From IMG/VR virus record IMGVR_UViG_2519899780_000002: DNA of 49,454 nucleotides; one strand, written 5' to 3'. This document shows, in pieces, positions 6,001 through 12,000 of this stretch (the stretch's first letter is position 1; each line of letters opens with the position of its first letter). The DNA is from a virus (Duplodnaviria > Heunggongvirae > Uroviricota > Caudoviricetes). A program made the position numbers.

Positions 6001-9000
6001 GAAAGCGCACCACGGAAACGGAAGCGATTTAAATTAAATTTTTCCAGATCATGAATGCGGAAATTCTCAGGCAATGCCACAGCATCGGCACCAATCTTAC
6101 TGATAATTTCATTAACACCCTGAGCAGAAATAAGGGCATGGATTTGATTAATTGCGGTTGCGTCTAAGTTCTGAGACATAATAAGTCCTCACTATATTAA
6201 GATATTCAGTGATGAGATAAATAATCAGTTAATTAAGAACGATATTAATGACCTGCTGCGCGGAGTTTTCCGTCAGGTTCACCGGCAAGAGTCAGTAATT
6301 GTCCCTGGTCTTCCTGCAGAATAGTCAGGCGACCACCTCGATTGACATACATCGGCGTTTCGGTGGTGTCTTCTTCGGAGATTTTCCCGCGGTTAGTCGG
6401 GCGAACATATGAGAGTTTGTGTTTGATTTTCACACGGTTCTCATCAAACGGTTCGATGTCCAGATTGACCGAGACTTTACCTTTGTTTTTCGTGTTCATC
6501 ACACCGGAAGCGACTTCACTGAGAACTGCGCCGAGTTTGGTTTCAAATACGCCGCCGTCCAGTTCTACGATAAATACCTGCACATCAGTACTGCGTACGC
6601 TAGCCATTTTGCTGCTCCTCATCATACCGACCCTGCAAGGTCGGTTGGTTTCTCCACAAAACAGAGAAGAACACCTGCGGTGACAGCCGCCCGGATGGAT
6701 TGGGTTATGAGCCCGTCGTCCGGTGATGCTCTTCTCTGTTTTGTAAAAAGAGCGGTACCAGCCGGAAGCAAGGGTACAAACTGGTACCGCCAAAGCAGTG
6801 GCTGTTGTGGTGGGGTTGTCACTCAGGCGTATGGTCAACCTGACAATCCGGTGTCCTCAACGGGGAAAGAGTAACCCCGCCATACTTACCGCCGCGCCAT
6901 TTCGCGGATTACCACAACGCTGAGAGCACTTAGCCAGTTACGGCACCACACTTTGTCGCGGTTCCATAAATGCCCTCATCGTTGCACCCTGGTCTCTTCC
7001 CAGGCGTCAAACCGGATCGCCACGCTGGTTAGGCGTCTTATCAGCATCATCATTGACTTGCACATTCCGGCTACCTGGTTTGTTTGCCCGAGCAAGGAGT
7101 GGATTGTCCCCTTTAACGTCACCAGACCGCTAACGACGCATGTGCCATACGCCGTGTTACAACCAAATTTTGTTAGTACCTTGTTTGTATGTCTGGAAAG
7201 AAAGATAAAATGAAGTTGCGCATTATGCAAGTGTTTTTATTGCGAGATATGCAATTTGGTGGGTAATGAAAAGCCACCTTCTGGTGGCTAATTGATGTTG
7301 AGGTAGGGGTTAATTGTGTCGCTTAAGGGTTTGTGACTGACTGATTAAGACCTTTCCAAAGACCATAAACCGATGTTCGTTTTCGCTGGTAATTCCCCAT
7401 TCGCGGTAAATCTGATTATCAGAAATTACCAGCAGTTTATCAGGTATCATTTGCAGTCGTTTGACGTAAATTTTATCATCAAAACCAAATACATATATAC
7501 CATCCCCATCAAACTGATTGATACTGATATCAACGAAGATGAGATCTCCTGGCTCAATGGTTGGACACATACTGTCCCCACGAACGTTGATAACTTTAAT
7601 GTGATTGGCTGGCCGTCCGCCAAACATCGATACAGCATTATCAGTTCTGTATTCAATGGCATGAATCACATCAATGACATCACCGCCCTGGATAAGGCCA
7701 TTTCCCGCACTGGCACTGACATCCAGCATTTCAATACGGAATACATCCTTCACCTGCGCAACATCCTCACCAATACTGTTTTTACATACAGTATTACTTT
7801 TGACGTCTGAGGTAAAGAGATCAGCGATATCAACACCTAAGCTCCTGGCAATATTACTCAGGGCTTGTTCAGTGAATTGTTTCTGCTTACCTGTTTCCAG
7901 GCGTGAGATATTCGCCGCATCCACTCCTATTGCTTCAGCGAGATCGGCGATTTTCATGTTCTTCGCCTGGCGAAGTTGTCTGACTCGGTTTCCTATGTTC
8001 ATGCGTTTATTACATTTCTTTATTGCGCGTTAAGCAAATCAACTTGCGCAAAATATTTGCGTGAAATAATATGCTCATCACGCAATATGTGGAGGTTATA
8101 TGCAATCACCATTACGGAATGTGCGTAAGGCGCACGGATTTACTTTGCAGCATGTTGCTGCGGGCGTTCAGGTCAATCCAGCGACGCTGAGTCGTATTGA
8201 AAGACTGGAACAAATTCCATCTATCGATCTTGCAGAACGTCTGGCCAATTTTTTTAAGGGTGAAATCAGCGAAATGCAGATTCTTTATCCGGCACGTTTT
8301 CAATCTAGCCAAAACCAGAATGGGTTTAAACCACAGGAACAGGAGGTAAGCCGTGGGTAATCATCACTGGAAAGTGGAAAAACAGCCTGAGTGGTACGTG
8401 AAAGCTGTCAGAAAAACTATCGCGGCGTTGCCGGGGGGTTACGCTGAAGCTGCTGAGTGGCTGGATGTAACAGAGAACGCATTATTCAACCGCCTTCGTG
8501 CAGATGGCGATCAGATTTTCCCGCTGGGATGGGCAATGGTTTTACAGCGTGCGGCTGGCACTCACTACATTGCGGATGCTGTCGCACAGTCTGCTGGTGG
8601 GGTGTTCGTATCGCTTCCTGAAATTGAGGCAGTAGAGAACGCCGATATAAACCAGCGCCTGCTGGAAGTCATTGAACAGATCGGCAGTTATTCCAGACAG
8701 ATTCGTTCAGCAATCGAAGACGGTGTAGTGGAACCGCATGAGAAGACAGCAATTAACGACGAACTGTATCTTTCAATTTCGAAGCTCCAGGAGCATGCAG
8801 CACTGGTCTACAAAATCTTCTGCGCTCCAGAAAAGAGTAACGCCCGCGAGTGTGCAGCTCCGGGCGTCGTGGCGTCGATTGCTTCTGGTTGTGGAGAAAC
8901 TAACGCATGAATAGTTTAACGGCAAATAACCGTTTGTCGCAACAGCTGGTGGTCAGCGTCGCTGAACACCTGTTGTTACGGCATGAATGCAGATTACCAA

Positions 9001-12000
9001 ATCACCTGGCTGTAAGTAACCACAGAGAACTTTACCTGACTGTGGGGGGCGAGTTGTGCAGGAACTTAACCGCTGGTTTCGTGACGGAAGAGGGCTTTAT
9101 GTCCATGTTATTCGTTGGGAGCCAGAAACACAGCGCGTTATCTATCTTCGCAAAGACTACCCGCATGAGTGCTTTAGTCCTTTGTGGAAATTCAGGCGTG
9201 ATTTTGTTGAGTGTGAAGGACCACCAGCATATTGATTCTGCAATTCCGGGACGTTACACTGTTCAGGCACCTTATAAAGCGGGTGCCGGGATTGGCGTCC
9301 TGAAATTCGCACATGCGCATAACCGCGCTTCAGCGGTTTTTTTGCGCACGTTTCCTCACATCCAAATTATGGTGGGGCGTGCAGGGGCATCGAAAGATGC
9401 GCCGGGGTCATGTGCGACCGGTTACGCCAACCCTGTACGTCTCACCACCTCTGTGATTGGCGTCCCATGTGGTGAGTTTTCAAAATTCGCACATGAGGAT
9501 GTCACTATGGCAACCACCCCTACCCAAACTCACCCTAAAATTGATGTTATCCATGGGAAGGCTGTTACCTCTTCTTTGGCCGTTGCCGAATATTTCTGCA
9601 AGCAGCACAAAAACGTTATTCAAAAAATCCAGACGCTTGAGTGCTCTGTTGAATTCACTGAGCTGAATTTTCAGCCCAGTGATTACACCGATTGCACAGG
9701 CCGCAAACTCCCTTGTTACCAAATCACCCGCGACGGTTTTGCGTTTCTTGCCATGGGCTTCACGGGGAAACGTGCTGCCCGGTTCAAAGAGGCATACATC
9801 AATGCCTTTAACCAGATGGAGAAACAGCTTTCAAATCCCTCTGTACTGAGCGACGTTGCACATAACGCCAGCGTTCTCTATTCCTACATTTCATCAATTC
9901 ATCAGGTCTGGCTGCAGCAGCTTTATCCCATGTTGGCAAAAGCCGAATCCCCGCTGGCTGTAAGTCTGTATGACCGCATCAACGACGCGGCGCTACTGGC
10001 CAGTCTCATAAATTTGTCGCTGAACCCTTCAGAGGTAAGGGGGCGCAAATGATCCGGAATATTTTCAAACGGTTTACCAATCATACTTTCCGTTGTCCTC
10101 GTCCGGGTCAGTGGTACACCACGCCTGCAGGGCATGTTCTACGTGTTAGCCTGGTTGACCGTGAATGTCAGAAGGTGATTTGTGAACCGCTGGGCCGTAA
10201 TTACCGCATCAGTATGCCGCTTATAGCCTTTTGCTCCGGAAAAAACATGAAGCATCTCGGAGGTGCAGCATGAGTATGGAGCTGATGGTTAAAGCGATGA
10301 AAATTCGAGTGGGTAATCCATTGCGAAAACTGGTTCTGATCAAGCTGGCTGATAATGCCAGCGATCAGGGTGAGTGCTGGCCCAGCTACCAGCATATTGC
10401 TGACCAGTGCGAGATTAGCAAACGTTCTGTGATGAATCATATTGCGGCCCTTTGTGAGTCCGGGCTGGTAAAAAAAGTCACCCGGAAAGGTGAAAAAGGT
10501 AACTCAAGTAATATCTATCTCCTTCATCTTGATGGTGCAGGAGATTCACTAGGGGGTAGTGCAAATAATTCACTATCTGGTGCAGCAAATTCACCAGGTA
10601 GTGCAGGAGTTGCACCAGGGGGTGGTGCAGGAGATTCACCCAGAACCAGTCACTCTTTTGAACCAGTCAAAGAACCAGTCAATGAACCAATAGCTGTTGG
10701 TGCATCTGCTGATGAGTCTGTGCGAGTTCGTTCAAACCGACCGGAATACTCTCCGGAGTTTGAGCAGGCATGGCTGGCATACCCCAAACGTGCTGGTGGC
10801 AATTCAAAATCTGCAGCCTTCAAAGCCTGGAAAGCCCGTTTGAATGAGGGGGTAAAACCCGAAACCATGCTGGAAGGTGTGAAACGCTACGCGGGCTGGG
10901 TATCTGCGATGGGTAACAGCGGCACACAATTTGTGAAACAGGCTGTCACGTTCTTTGGTCCGGATCGTCATTTCGAAGAATCCTGGGAAGTTCCTGCGGT
11001 ATCTGCAGCCAGACGCGAGGACCCGTACTTCAAAGCCAGTTACGACAACGTGGACTACAGCCAGATCCCGGCAGGATTCAGGGGGTGATCATGAGTCTTT
11101 TGAATGAAGTTCAGAAATTCATTGAAGCCCATCCGGGGTGTACTTCCGGAGACATTGCGGATGCTTTTGCAGGTTACTCACGGCAGCGCGTTCTGCAGTC
11201 AGCAAGCAAGTTACGTCAGAGTGGGCGTGTGGCTCACCGTTGTGAAGGAGATACACGCAGACATTTCCCGCGCCTGACTGAGAGAGCACAGGAGCCGGAA
11301 CCACAACCAGTTCGTGAAACCAGACCTGTGCGCAATTTCTGTGTCGGCACTAACGACCCGCAGGTGATTTTGTGCCTGACTCGCCAGGCGGAAGAACTGG
11401 AGTCCAGGGGCTTATTCCGTCGAGCTGCAACGGTGTGGATGGAGGCATTCCGTGAAAGCCACTCCCAGCCAGAACGAAACAATTTTCTGGCGCATCGTGA
11501 GCGGTGCTTACGGAAAAGCAGCAAGCGCGCTGCATCGGGTGAAGAGTGGTATCTGTCAGGGAATTACGTGGGGGCTTAATGAGTAATAAATATTGCCAGG
11601 CGCTGGTGGAGCTGCGGAACAAACCAGCCCATGAACTGAAGGAAGTGGGCGATCAGTGGCGCACGCCGGACAACATTTTCTGGGGAATTAACACCCTGTT
11701 TGGCCCGTTTGTTCTGGATCTGTTCACTGATGGTGATAACGCCAAATGTGCCGCTTATTACACTGCGGAAGACAACGCGCTGGCGCATGACTGGTCTGAA
11801 CGTCTTGCGGAGCTTAAAGGTGCTGCCTTTGGTAATCCCCCGTACAGCCGCGCCAGTCAGCATGAGGGGCAATACATCACCGGCATGCGTTACATCATGA
11901 AACATGCCAGTGCCATGCGTGATAAAGGCGGGCGCTATGTTTTCCTGATCAAAGCTGCCACCAGCGAAGTGTGGTGGCCGGAAGATGCAGATCATATTGC

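What the first reader, a model, noticed from the sequence alone, without database searches (positions are those of the whole stretch)
8907..9510. Long track ORF upstream of rha hides a small gene, a terminator and a duplicated 13-bp motif
Seen: the first ~200 codons of track ORF 8907..10052 look non-protein-like. A different frame encodes a compact 59-aa protein (9056..9235) with a protein-like composition. A hairpin plus T7 terminator sits at 9321-9343. The motif AAATTCGCACATG occurs twice (9303-9315 and 9483-9495), the second just upstream of the Rha RBS and ATG (9507). Inference: Rha has its own regulated promoter downstream of a tR1-like terminator, and the repeats are binding sites or promoter elements.
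Basis: partly seen in the sequence, partly recalled or inferred. Interest (0 to 1): 0.4.

Follow-up and report, generated by a model that had tools for sequence, protein, structure and literature searches.

The report
P4-type RNA immunity cassette before rha
The region is a phage RNA switch of a known kind: a small decoy RNA with its own terminator, a C4/CI-type antisense RNA, and two copies of the antisense target, one covering the rha ribosome-binding site. All of it lies inside a long reading frame that is kept open so ribosomes can cross it. This is another member of a described system, not a new one.

Summary
All four observations are real, but the interpretation needs changing. Rfam finds an isrK/seqA-type sRNA (9267-9343) that ends at the reported terminator, and a full-length C4/CI antisense RNA (9365-9452).

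The duplicated 13-mer is not a promoter or a protein-binding site. It is the b1/b2 target pair of the C4 loop CAUGUGCGA, and b2 abuts the rha Shine-Dalgarno sequence. A second duplicate, GATTGGCGTCC, is the a1/a2 pair. Across relatives, b1, the loop and b2 change together, giving at least 11 specificities with fixed geometry, as in P4 and Gifsy-1.

The 59-aa ORF is a real DUF4222 gene (pN/pS 0.15). The long ORF is not an artefact either. Its frame has no stops in 53 of 56 variants, whereas the other two frames gained 12 and 13. Indels are multiples of three, and one relative carries a 291-nt in-frame deletion. Its amino-acid sequence is nevertheless unconstrained (pN/pS 0.89).

The long ORF matches phage P4 eta (Pfam Phage_ASH), with rha nested in it as kil is nested in eta. 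The likely promoter (9232-9260) lies upstream of isrK, not after the terminator.

Verdict: a new member of a known kind, of moderate to low interest.

The parts
8353..8910 (+). cII-like / YmfL gene. Its stop codon overlaps the start of the long ORF (ATGA at 8907-8910).
   Evidence: Pfam Phage_CP76; PHROG 101, CII-like activator; RefSeq names it ymfL; sequence read.
8907..10052 (+). Eta-like long ORF (381 aa) that crosses the whole RNA cassette and runs in frame into rha. The frame is kept open, but the first 200 codons are not constrained as protein.
   Evidence: No stops in 53 of 56 variants, against 12 and 13 stops gained in the other two frames and 9-12.5 expected. Region lengths are 597/600/603/606 nt. 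A 291-nt in-frame deletion occurs in L030. pN/pS is 0.89 over 9236-9506. Residues 117-211 hit Pfam Phage_ASH, as does P4 Eta. BLASTP against P4 Eta gives E 4e-4.
9056..9235 (+). DUF4222 gene (59 aa), embedded out of frame in the long ORF.
   Evidence: Pfam PF13973, E 9e-14. PHROG 1343, E 2e-36. Intact in 56 of 56 variants. Variable sites per codon position 11/6/26 and pN/pS 0.15 in its own frame. A homolog is present in loci that lack the RNA cassette. RefSeq WP_001379286.1.
9232..9260 (+). Candidate sigma-70 promoter of the cassette (the PLE / PisrK position): TTGATT, 17-nt spacer, TACACT. The predicted transcription start is about 9267.
   Evidence: The same position and spacing relative to isrK +1 hold in 12 of 12 modules, including P4 and Gifsy-1. 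With 8 of 12 consensus matches it falls below the scan threshold. This is an inference; no start site was mapped.
9267..9343 (+). IsrK / seqA-type sRNA. It has two 5' hairpins, a1 (TTGGCGT, 9292-9298), b1 (TCGCACATG, 9307-9315) and an intrinsic terminator (stem 9321-9338, T7 at 9337-9343).
   Evidence: Rfam RF01394, 62.3 bits against a threshold of 50. Weak c4-a1b1 match at 9254-9306. Hairpins are 96% paired with 5 compensatory pairs in 15 sequences. A terminator hairpin plus T6-7 is present in 12 of 12 variants, with three different stem sequences.
9365..9452 (+). C4 / CI-type antisense RNA. The b' loop is UCAUGUGCGA (9408-9417) and a' is ACGCCAA (9424-9430). The conserved AUG at 9369 lies in the long-ORF frame.
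   Evidence: Rfam RF01695, 75.1 bits against a threshold of 45, full length. MFE -46.5 kcal/mol, z -5.1. 100% of 324 cells paired and 11 compensatory pairs in 12 sequences.
9455..9465 (+). a2 target (GATTGGCGTCC; core TTGGCGT at 9457-9463).
   Evidence: Exact duplicate of 9290-9300 and 7 of 7 complementary to 9424-9430. a1, a' and a2 change together in relatives.
9483..9499 (+). b2 target (13-mer at 9483-9495; paired core 9487-9496), overlapping the rha Shine-Dalgarno sequence GAGGA (9495-9499).
   Evidence: 10 of 10 complementary to 9408-9417. b1, b' and b2 co-vary through at least 11 specificities, and b2 always lies just 5' of the downstream start codon. The SD is predicted to be paired in a local hairpin, -26.3 kcal/mol, z -3.7.
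9507..10052 (+). rha (181 aa), the nested inner gene, analogous to P4 kil and Gifsy-1 anrP.
   Evidence: Pfam Phage_pRha, E 1e-32. PHROG Rha-like and anti-repressor families. pN/pS 0.36. The start motif MATTPTQTHP resembles P4 Kil MATTLTPSHP.

Best explanation
Window 8907-10052 carries a P4-type RNA immunity cassette inserted in the early-right operon of a lambdoid prophage, between the cII-like gene ymfL and the replication genes.

Proposed mechanism when only the internal promoter is active:
1. A constitutive internal promoter at about 9232-9260 starts transcription at about 9267.
2. Most transcripts stop at the intrinsic terminator (9321-9343). This gives a short IsrK/seqA-like RNA that carries the target copies a1 and b1.
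3. Read-through transcripts contain the C4/CI RNA (9365-9452), which is cut out as a stable antisense RNA.
4. The C4 segments a' and b' pair with a2 (9457-9463) and b2 (9487-9496) on the same or another transcript.
5. b2 overlaps the rha Shine-Dalgarno sequence, which is also buried in a local hairpin. rha translation is therefore blocked, and transcription of rha and the downstream genes is probably ended by polarity.
6. The a1/b1-bearing short RNA can titrate C4, acting as decoy and activator as shown for Gifsy-1 IsrK.

Proposed mechanism when transcription comes from the upstream early promoter:
1. Ribosomes leaving ymfL restart at the overlapping ATG at 8907.
2. They translate the long eta-like ORF straight across the promoter, terminator, C4 and a2/b2.
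3. This melts those RNA structures, so expression becomes insensitive to the RNA immunity. The product is an N-terminally extended Rha, and transcription continues into the downstream genes.

What is shown here: the RNA genes, the complementarities and their co-variation, the terminator, the real DUF4222 gene, the selectively open but amino-acid-unconstrained long frame, and homology to P4 eta/kil.

What is inferred from P4 and Gifsy-1 experiments: promoter activity, RNA processing, translational block, polarity, and ribosome-dependent override.
For: - Rfam matches above threshold for isrK and C4, 22 nt apart. The same pair is found in P4 (seqA/CI), Gifsy-1 and eight other phages.
- C4 structure: 100% paired, 11 compensatory pairs, against 35-48% paired in the slid controls.
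- Exact complementarity: b' x b2 10/10, b' x b1 9/9, a' x a1 and a' x a2 7/7.
- In 14 close variants and 12 divergent modules, b1, b' and b2 (and a1, a', a2) change together at fixed positions: a1 at isrK 26, b1 at isrK 41-42, a2 at +4 to +7, b2 at +31 to +50, start codon at +48 to +58. Summed helix length is 16.3 within a locus against 9.1 across loci.
- The terminator is conserved through three different stem sequences.
- A promoter-like site sits at a fixed distance in all 12 modules, at the position where P4 and Gifsy-1 have their described internal promoters.
- Long frame: 0 stops gained against 12 and 13 in the other frames, with 9-12.5 expected. Indels are in frame. A 291-nt in-frame deletion that removes DUF4222 keeps the frame. 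49 of 56 unique modules have the frame open from upstream of isrK into the downstream gene.
- pN/pS is 0.89 in the long frame, against 0.15 for DUF4222 and 0.36 for rha.
- P4 Eta hits Phage_ASH over the full model, and the window ORF hits it over exactly the RNA region.
- The ATGA overlap with the upstream gene is read directly from the sequence. In P4 the three candidate eta start codons lie at the stop codon of the upstream ORF88, by my reading of the coordinates.
- Literature: the P4 eta/kil mechanism is summarised in PMC10111431. IsrK = seqA and C4 = CI, also present in lambdoid prophages, is stated in PMC3632133. IsrK trans-activation and orf45-anrP coupling are in PMC4825925.
Against: - There are no expression data for this locus. 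Promoter activity, C4 processing, the translational block and Rho-dependent polarity are not shown here.
- The candidate promoter is weak (8 of 12 consensus matches) and was not called by the scan.
- RNA-level constraints make pN/pS an imperfect test of protein constraint, so a functional 'Ash' polypeptide cannot be excluded.
- The sample of relatives was gathered through ymfL and Rha homology. It is dominated by one phage lineage, so the 49 of 56 count is not an unbiased frequency.
- Three singleton variants break the frame through 1-nt indels; these are either real or sequencing errors.
- Four modules (Gifsy-1, VT2-Sakai, phiV10 and the second module in locus L018) lack the long frame and have a short orf45 instead. 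The override by translation is therefore not universal.
- The Forti 1999 paper could not be read here. Its content is taken from a secondary summary and from memory.
Confidence: 0.8

Rival explanations
1. The long ORF is a mis-call; a tR1-like terminator ends upstream transcription; rha has its own promoter between 9340 and 9510; and the 13-bp repeats are promoter elements or binding sites for a protein regulator.
For: The terminator is real. The repeats are real, and one abuts the rha RBS. The first 200 codons show no amino-acid constraint.
Against: - The interval between the repeats is a full-length C4 RNA whose loop is the exact complement of the repeat.
- In relatives the repeat sequence changes in step with that loop. 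That is expected for RNA-RNA pairing, not for an operator.
- No promoter-like site was found in 9340-9510.
- The long frame is selectively kept open.
Confidence: 0.04
2. The 381-aa ORF encodes a true two-domain protein, an 'Ash' domain plus Rha, whose N-terminal part acts as a polypeptide. The RNA elements merely overlap it.
For: Pfam has a family for this region (PF10554), with matches in the window, SfV, ST64B, the Stx1 phage, P88 and P4. The frame is conserved, with in-frame indels. PHROG families include the region. GenBank and RefSeq often annotate the long protein.
Against: - Variable sites are spread evenly over codon positions (49/51/50 in 9236-9506) and pN/pS is 0.89.
- The conserved columns coincide with RNA helices and target sites.
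- In 9056-9235 the constraint lies in another frame.
- A natural variant deletes 97 codons of it.
- Type II modules place a stop two codons before the C4 AUG.
- The 'domain' is fused to unrelated downstream genes or to none: Rha in the window, ST64B and the Stx1 phage, Kil in P4, and no recognised domain in SfV and P88. This fits a portable RNA cassette.
Confidence: 0.1
3. The cassette works purely as in Gifsy-1. Only transcripts from the internal promoter matter, translation starts at the C4-internal AUG (9369), and the upstream 460 nt of open frame is an accident of descent.
For: The AUG at C4 model position 5 is conserved in all modules and is the experimentally used orf45 start in Gifsy-1. 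From 9369 the frame runs into rha.
Against: - No new stops arose in regions A-C upstream of 9369, while the other frames gained them there.
- The ATGA coupling to ymfL is conserved in SfV, L095 and L030, and ST64B has the same 4-nt overlap in its annotation. A comparable stop-start overlap is seen in P4.
- The 291-nt deletion upstream of 9369 is in frame.
- Modules in other upstream contexts still have 126-807 nt of open frame upstream.
Confidence: 0.06

Closest known systems
Satellite phage P4 immunity region: PLE, seqA, CI RNA, seqC and the nested genes eta/kil (Sabbattini 1995 and Forti 1999, as summarised in PMC10111431 and PMC3632133)
   Same: - Identical Rfam signature: isrK = seqA, C4 = CI.
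- Same positions for the targets: a1/b1 inside the upstream RNA, a2/b2 at +5 and +36 after C4, start codon at +55.
- Same promoter position.
- A long ORF starts at the stop codon of the upstream gene, crosses everything and ends in frame as a shorter nested gene.
- Both long ORFs hit Pfam Phage_ASH over the RNA region.
- The nested start motif MATT.T..HP is shared.
   Different: - The host element is a lambdoid prophage, and the upstream promoter would be the early-right promoter rather than P4 PLL.
- The nested gene is a 181-aa Rha-domain regulator, not the 65-aa Kil.
- An extra DUF4222 gene is embedded out of frame in the outer ORF.
- The target sequences (specificity) differ.
- P4's spacer between seqA and CI is about 107 nt, against 21 nt here.
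Gifsy-1 isrK-orf45-anrP locus (Hershko-Shalev et al. 2016, PMC4825925)
   Same: - An IsrK sRNA with its own promoter and a leaky terminator.
- A C4-type RNA (the STnc1160/orf45 region) follows directly; Rfam C4 scores 69 bits in Gifsy-1.
- The a/b complementarities are present.
- The downstream gene is an antirepressor-type, Bro-network regulator whose RBS lies next to b2.
   Different: - In Gifsy-1 the frame is closed two codons before the C4 AUG. A separate 45-codon orf45 ends with ATGA on the anrP start, so the two are coupled but out of frame.
- Here the same frame is open for 462 nt upstream and is fused in frame to rha.
- AnrP has an ORF6N domain, not Rha, and the two proteins show no similarity.
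- The Gifsy-1 cassette lies next to antQ in the late region, not in the early-right operon.
P1/P7 immI: c4 antisense RNA controlling icd-ant (Citron & Schuster 1990, cited through PMC8201110 and PMC7313666)
   Same: - A C4-family RNA is cut from the same transcript that it represses.
- The a'/b' segments pair with a2/b2 at the RBS of the first downstream ORF.
- a1/b1 copies lie upstream.
- The target operon encodes an antirepressor.
- Related phages differ in a/b specificity.
   Different: - The P1 locus was not examined here.
- From my own knowledge, P1 has a separate icd ORF coupled to ant1/ant2, and C1-controlled promoters. I am not aware of an eta-like ORF across c4.
- The P1 Ant protein belongs to a different family from Rha.

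Membership tests
C4 antisense RNA family (Rfam RF01695; P1/P7 c4, P4 CI) | Long closing stem enclosing two inner hairpins, with score above the curated threshold | tested here: met
   75.1 bits against a threshold of 45, model positions 1-87 of 87. MFE z -5.1. 27 pairs 100% paired in 12 homologs, 11 with compensatory changes.
C4 antisense RNA family (Rfam RF01695; P1/P7 c4, P4 CI) | Single-stranded a' and b' segments complementary to a2/b2 just upstream of the regulated gene, with b2 at its RBS | tested here: met
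   a' x a2 7/7 and b' x b2 10/10. b2 overlaps SD GAGGA, 11 nt before the ATG at 9507. Co-variation in 26 variants or modules.
C4 antisense RNA family (Rfam RF01695; P1/P7 c4, P4 CI) | Second target copy a1/b1 upstream of the RNA gene | tested here: met
   Exact duplicates at 9290-9300 and 9303-9315. The Rfam c4-a1b1 match is only weak, 21.6 bits against a threshold of 46.7.
C4 antisense RNA family (Rfam RF01695; P1/P7 c4, P4 CI) | Mature RNA released from a longer transcript by RNase P or other processing | not testable with these tools
   Needs RNA end mapping. Only the conserved 3' CACCACC tail can be seen.
IsrK / seqA sRNA (Rfam RF01394) | Two 5' hairpins plus an intrinsic terminator, with score above threshold | tested here: met
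   62.3 bits against a threshold of 50, model positions 1-77 of 77. Hairpins 96% paired with 5 compensatory pairs. Terminator present in 12 of 12 variants.
IsrK / seqA sRNA (Rfam RF01394) | Own promoter immediately upstream | tested here: inconclusive
   A sigma-70-like site (TTGATT, 17-nt spacer, TACACT) is positionally conserved with P4 and Gifsy-1. It has 8 of 12 consensus matches, is not called by the scan, and no transcription start data exist.
IsrK / seqA sRNA (Rfam RF01394) | Gifsy-1 arrangement: a separate short orf45 that ends on the start codon of the antirepressor gene | tested here: not met
   Here the frame from the C4 AUG (9369) has no stop before rha and is in frame with it. It is also open upstream as far as 8904.
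P4-type immunity with nested eta/kil genes | A long ORF begins upstream of the internal promoter, spans seqA, CI and seqC, and is in frame with a shorter nested gene that starts just after seqC | tested here: met
   ORF 8907..10052 contains the promoter, isrK, C4, a2/b2 and the nested rha start at 9507. The frame is selectively open. Pfam Phage_ASH is shared with P4 Eta.
P4-type immunity with nested eta/kil genes | Start of the long ORF translationally coupled to the upstream gene | tested here: met
   ATGA overlap with the ymfL stop at 8907-8910. The same start context is present in SfV, L095 and L030, and a 4-nt overlap is annotated in SfV and ST64B. In P4 the eta start codons overlap the ORF88 stop. 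Only the arrangement is shown, not the coupling itself.
P4-type immunity with nested eta/kil genes | Translation of the long ORF prevents immunity-dependent termination; nonsense mutations are polar | not testable with these tools
   Known for P4 from the literature (PMC10111431). Here it is supported only indirectly, by stop-codon avoidance without amino-acid constraint.
P4-type immunity with nested eta/kil genes | Rho-dependent terminator (timm) downstream of the target sites | not tested
   No tool here predicts Rho-dependent terminators.
DUF4222 (Pfam PF13973) | Match above the gathering score over the full domain, and evidence of protein-level selection | tested here: met
   51.1 bits against a threshold of 27, profile positions 4-51 of 53. 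pN/pS 0.15. Intact in 56 of 56 variants.

The most novel reading that the evidence does not exclude
The first 200 codons of the long ORF may be a pure 'ribosome conduit'. On this reading the frame is selected only to stay open, so that ribosomes coming from the early operon can run over and disarm an RNA immunity cassette. That one stretch of DNA also holds an out-of-frame protein gene (DUF4222), an internal promoter, two sRNA genes, a terminator and the antisense targets.

If this is right, Pfam PF10554 (Phage_ASH) and the matching PHROGs are 'protein families' whose conservation is really RNA-level conservation read in the eta frame. The arrangement would also be a general, modular way for lambdoid, P2-like and satellite elements to make Bro-network regulators (Rha, ORF6N, Bro-N, Kil) immune-sensitive from one promoter and immune-insensitive from another. 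Many a/b specificity types would be evolving as heteroimmunity groups.
Probability: 0.45. Interest if true: 0.5.

Novelty: new member of a known kind. Interest (0 to 1): 0.33.

Why it matters
This prophage region is 100% identical to one in E. coli O104:H4 outbreak strains, and close relatives lie in Stx-converting phages. The cassette sits between the lysogeny regulators and the replication genes, so it probably adds an RNA layer to the decision to induce.

Public annotation gets the region wrong in several different ways: as a 'peptidase', as a 381-aa Rha, or as a 295-aa Rha. The two RNA genes are never annotated. Recognising the cassette corrects those annotations.

It also explains why a 'non-protein-like' ORF is nevertheless conserved. 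It flags a Pfam family whose signal is probably RNA-derived. And it provides a natural series of at least 11 matched loop/target specificities that could be used to test heteroimmunity.

Tried and rejected
- I first took the Pfam Phage_ASH hit to mean a spurious protein family and the long ORF to be a plain artefact. I rejected this after counting stops per frame, indel lengths and the in-frame deletion and after finding the P4 eta parallel.\n- A promoter between the terminator and rha: none was found by the scan, and the interval is filled by the C4 gene.\n- The shuffle control for the 13-mer with two mismatches is uninformative: 3 matches found against 2.1 expected. The evidence rests on the exact duplicate and its complement.\n- Column-wise pair counting of the terminator across relatives failed, because loop lengths put the stems out of register in the alignment. 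I replaced it with per-sequence folding.\n- Attempts to read Forti 1999 and Sabbattini 1995 failed because the papers are not held. One literature search with generic terms returned only noise.\n- Similarity between window Rha and Gifsy-1 AnrP: none. They belong to different domain families.\n- I did not use the large protein-database searches, structure prediction or the metagenome and genome scans. The Pfam, PHROG and Rfam results and 170 fetched loci were sufficient.

Full report
**Observation check.**
The window between the cII-like gene ymfL (8353..8910) and the Rha domain was read and its ORFs listed.
- the 381-aa ORF 8907..10052;
- the 59-aa ORF 9056..9235 in another frame;
- a hairpin AACCGC/GCGGTT at 9321-9338 followed by T7 at 9337-9343;
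- the 13-mer AAATTCGCACATG at 9303 and 9483, the only two exact copies in 49 kb.

There is a second exact duplicate, GATTGGCGTCC, at 9290-9300 and 9455-9465. There are also perfect inverted matches of both duplicates inside 9408-9430: TCATGTGCGA against TCGCACATGA (10/10), CATGTGCGA against TCGCACATG (9/9), and ACGCCAA against TTGGCGT (7/7).

**What the elements are.**
A scan against Rfam gives two matches above the curated thresholds:
- isrK (RF01394) at 9267-9343, 62.3 bits against a threshold of 50;
- C4 antisense RNA (RF01695) at 9365-9452, 75.1 bits against a threshold of 45, full length.

A weak c4-a1b1 match lies at 9254-9306.

The C4 segment folds to -46.5 kcal/mol (z -5.1). In an alignment of 12 homologs from different phages, all 324 cells of the 27 pairs of the family structure form standard pairs. 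Eleven pairs show compensatory changes, and controls with slid partners reach only 35-48% paired.

The two 5' hairpins of the isrK-type RNA are 96% paired, with five compensatory pairs in 15 sequences. The terminator hairpin plus a T6-7 run is kept in 12 of 12 variants through three different stem sequences.

**The 13-mer is an RNA target, not a DNA site.**
In the C4 family the 12-nt loop of the second inner hairpin (b') and the joining strand after it (a') are the antisense segments. Here b' is complementary to both copies of the 13-mer, and a' to both copies of the 11-mer.

I collected 170 related loci, through homologs of YmfL and of Rha in IMG/VR and through annotated phage and E. coli records. 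In 56 unique sequences homologous to window 8850-9600 there are 14 distinct combinations of upstream site, C4 loops and downstream site. In these, b1, b' and b2 change together, for example TCGCACATG, GTCAACGG, GACTACCG, TCACCAAAG, GCATACGG, GTTATCGG and TCAACATAG. The segments a1, a' and a2 also change together: TTGGCGT, GTGGAAA and TTCGCAG.

Twelve more divergent modules, including P4 and Gifsy-1, show the same geometry:
- a1 at position 26 and b1 at position 41-42 of the isrK-type RNA;
- a2 at 4-7 nt and b2 at 31-50 nt after the end of C4;
- the start codon of the downstream gene at +48 to +58.

The summed helix length of b' with its own sites averages 16.3 nt, against 9.1 with the sites of other loci.

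In the window, b2 (9487-9496) overlaps the first two bases of the SD GAGGA (9495-9499), 11 nt before the rha ATG at 9507. The SD is also predicted to be buried in a local hairpin between the a2-proximal and b2-proximal sequences (-26.3 kcal/mol, z -3.7). The SD region is mostly paired in 12 of 12 modules.

A protein operator or a promoter element would not be expected to track the loop of an RNA gene in this way.

**The small gene.**
The 59-aa ORF is a real gene:
- It matches Pfam DUF4222 (E 9e-14) and PHROG 1343 (E 2e-36).
- It is intact in 56 of 56 variants.
- Its variable sites fall 11/6/26 on codon positions 1/2/3 of its own frame.
- pN/pS is 0.15 in its frame, against 1.41 in the long-ORF frame.
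- A 67%-identical homolog follows ymfL in relatives that lack the RNA cassette.
- RefSeq sometimes annotates it, as WP_001379286.1.

**The long ORF is not an artefact.**
I first took the long ORF for a mis-call and the Pfam Phage_ASH hit for a translated-RNA artefact. That hit covers residues 117-211, which is nt 9255-9539 and exactly the RNA region. The comparative data contradict the first part of that view:
- Over 8907-9506 the long frame has no stop in 53 of 56 unique variants (75-100% identity). The other two frames carry 10-16 and 4-13 stops.
- Among the 53 intact variants the other frames gained 12 and 13 new stop positions relative to the window, and the long frame gained none. Between 9 and 12.5 stop-creating changes are expected from the 332 observed differences.
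- Region lengths are 597, 600, 603 or 606 nt. The only three broken variants are singletons with 1-nt indels.
- One relative (L030) carries a 291-nt, 97-codon deletion. It removes the DUF4222 gene yet keeps the ATGA-coupled start joined in frame to the rest.
- Of 56 unique C4 modules in the fetched loci, 49 have this frame open from at least 100 nt upstream, through isrK, into the downstream gene.

At the same time there is no sign of amino-acid constraint. Variable sites in 9236-9506 are spread 49/51/50 over codon positions. pN/pS is 0.89, against 0.36 for rha. The frame is therefore kept open, but what it encodes does not seem to matter.

**The P4 parallel.**
The ST64B record notes similarity of its long ORF to 'P4 ORF199'. 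In P4 the same Rfam pair is found on the minus strand:
- isrK at 8615-8692;
- c4-a1b1 at 8653-8705;
- C4 at 8420-8507.

These are seqA and the CI RNA of the P4 literature, as stated in PMC3632133. The P4 ORF 8168..8812 contains the three consecutive Met codons that give the 197-199-aa Eta. It ends with the 65-aa Kil, MATTLTPSHPEF....

This ORF hits Phage_ASH over the whole model (E 4.5e-23). It aligns with the window ORF at the C4-internal Met (MVAQAG against MVGRAG) and at the nested start (MATTLTPSHP against MATTPTQTHP).

PMC10111431 summarises the P4 experiments of Forti et al. 1999:
- Kil is a truncated Eta made on occasional read-through.
- Its translation prevents termination.

I could not read the original paper. 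My memory of it agrees with this summary.

All the sequence-level features of that arrangement are present in the window:
- the ATGA overlap with the upstream gene (8907-8910);
- a sigma-70-like site, TTGATT-17 nt-TACACT (9232-9260), at the same distance from isrK +1 as the corresponding sites in P4 and Gifsy-1;
- the RNA elements;
- the nested in-frame gene.

**Relation to Gifsy-1 IsrK.**
In Gifsy-1 the isrK match (34240-34316, minus strand) is followed by a C4 match (34131-34214, 69 bits) and then by anrP. The published orf45 is the eta frame read from the conserved AUG at C4 model position 5. There the frame is closed two codons upstream, and it ends with ATGA on the anrP start.

The paper shows three things (PMC4825925). 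The isrK promoter drives the operon. The read-through mRNA is translationally silent. The short IsrK RNA activates it in trans by pairing with the orf45 region. The paper also notes a stable processed RNA (STnc1160) there and the resemblance to P4 seqA/CI.

The window therefore has the same cassette, but in the P4-like 'open' architecture rather than the Gifsy-1 'orf45' architecture. VT2-Sakai, phiV10 and the second module in locus L018 share the Gifsy-1 type.

The regulated genes differ between phages: Rha here and in an Stx1 phage, ORF6N in Gifsy-1 and VT2-Sakai, Bro-N in phiV10, and Kil in P4. This marks the RNA unit as a portable controller of Bro-network regulators and antirepressors.

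**Most likely mechanism.**
Shown here:
- the RNA genes and their structures;
- the target duplicates, their complementarity and their co-variation;
- the terminator;
- the DUF4222 gene;
- the selectively open, amino-acid-unconstrained outer frame;
- homology to P4 eta/kil.

Inferred by homology with the P4, Gifsy-1 and P1 experiments:
- The internal promoter fires in the lysogen.
- Most transcripts end at 9343 as an a1/b1-bearing sRNA.
- Read-through yields C4, which pairs with a2/b2, blocks the rha SD, and causes polarity on rha and the downstream 74-aa ORF and replication gene.
- The short RNA can titrate C4.
- When transcription comes from the early-right promoter, ribosomes coupled from ymfL translate 8907 onward, unfold the terminator, C4 and the SD hairpin, and so override the RNA immunity. 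This produces a long Rha isoform.

**Novelty.**
The kind of system is known. C4/CI and IsrK/seqA are curated Rfam families. The eta/kil logic is published for P4 and the IsrK logic for Gifsy-1. The presence of IsrK-C4 pairs in lambdoid prophages has been remarked (PMC3632133).

This instance, identical to a prophage of E. coli O104:H4 outbreak strains, is a new member. It has some features I did not find described:
- a Rha gene as the nested partner;
- a DUF4222 gene embedded out of frame in the outer ORF;
- direct comparative evidence that the outer frame is kept open without amino-acid constraint.

Public annotation of the region is inconsistent and never includes the RNAs.

**Verdict.**
- Observation: confirmed.
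- Interpretation: partly supported.
- Classification: new member of a known kind.
- Interest: moderate to low.

Noticed in passing
L030 3555-4415 (IMGVR_UViG_2693429642_000015); equivalent to window 8936-9226 being deleted: A natural 291-nt (97-codon) in-frame deletion removes the DUF4222 gene and most of 8911-9055. It keeps the ATGA-coupled start fused in frame to the RNA cassette and rha, giving a 286-aa ORF.
   Followed up: yes
window 9255-9539; L163 (P4) 8168-8812 minus strand: Pfam PF10554 (Phage_ASH) matches exactly the translated a1b1/isrK-C4-a2b2 region in the eta frame, in the window, SfV, ST64B, an Stx1 phage, P88 and P4. The DNA there shows RNA-type co-variation and no codon periodicity. 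The family's conservation is therefore probably RNA-derived.
   Followed up: partly
window 9468-9476 versus 9441-9448: A conserved element, GGTGGTGAG, lies between a2 and b2 and is complementary to the 3' strand of the C4 closing stem (CTCACCAC). P4 has GGCGATAGC opposite GCTATCGCC at the same place. This suggests an alternative helix that would compete with C4 folding.
   Followed up: no
window 9453-9511 and the equivalent 55-60 nt after C4 in 11 other modules: The Shine-Dalgarno sequence of the nested gene is predicted to be mostly paired (6-9 of 10 nt) in a local hairpin in all 12 modules. The anti-SD strand lies just 3' of a2 and changes along with b2.
   Followed up: partly
L095 3030-3218 (also L007, L008, L082, L093, L094, L146, L158, L019): Some close relatives carry a second tandem isrK-C4-rha module directly after the first rha. 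It is about 75% identical, has a different b specificity, and its outer ORF starts on the stop codon of the first rha.
   Followed up: partly
L171 1707-2703 and L172 1558-2703 (RefSeq E. coli FORC_043 and O104:H4 C227-11): Identical DNA is annotated either as a single 381-aa Rha protein or as DUF4222 plus a 295-aa Rha that starts inside the DUF4222 gene. GenBank phage Lys8385Vzw calls the ORF a 'peptidase'. No record annotates the two sRNA genes.
   Followed up: yes
L041 3555-3946 and similar loci (L023-L083 group): In relatives without the RNA cassette, the ORF coupled to the ymfL stop (MNSLT...) is only 63 aa and ends near the start of a DUF4222 homolog. That homolog is followed directly by the replication gene.
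   Followed up: partly
window 10049-10273: A 74-aa ORF (PHROG 1153, unknown function) starts on the rha stop codon (ATGA at 10049-10052) and overlaps the start of the following HTH_36/DnaD-like replication gene (10231..11088). This continues the chain of overlapping stop and start codons from cro onward.
   Followed up: no
window 19009-19524 and 48849-49047: Other Rfam matches in the window: three tRNA genes (19009-19255), the sRNA STnc100 (19334-19524) and the IS009 RNA (48849-49047).
   Followed up: no
window 9353-9371 versus 9481-9499: An imperfect inverted repeat (74%) pairs UCCUCA, just upstream of C4, with the rha SD UGAGGA. It does not look conserved in other specificity types.
   Followed up: no
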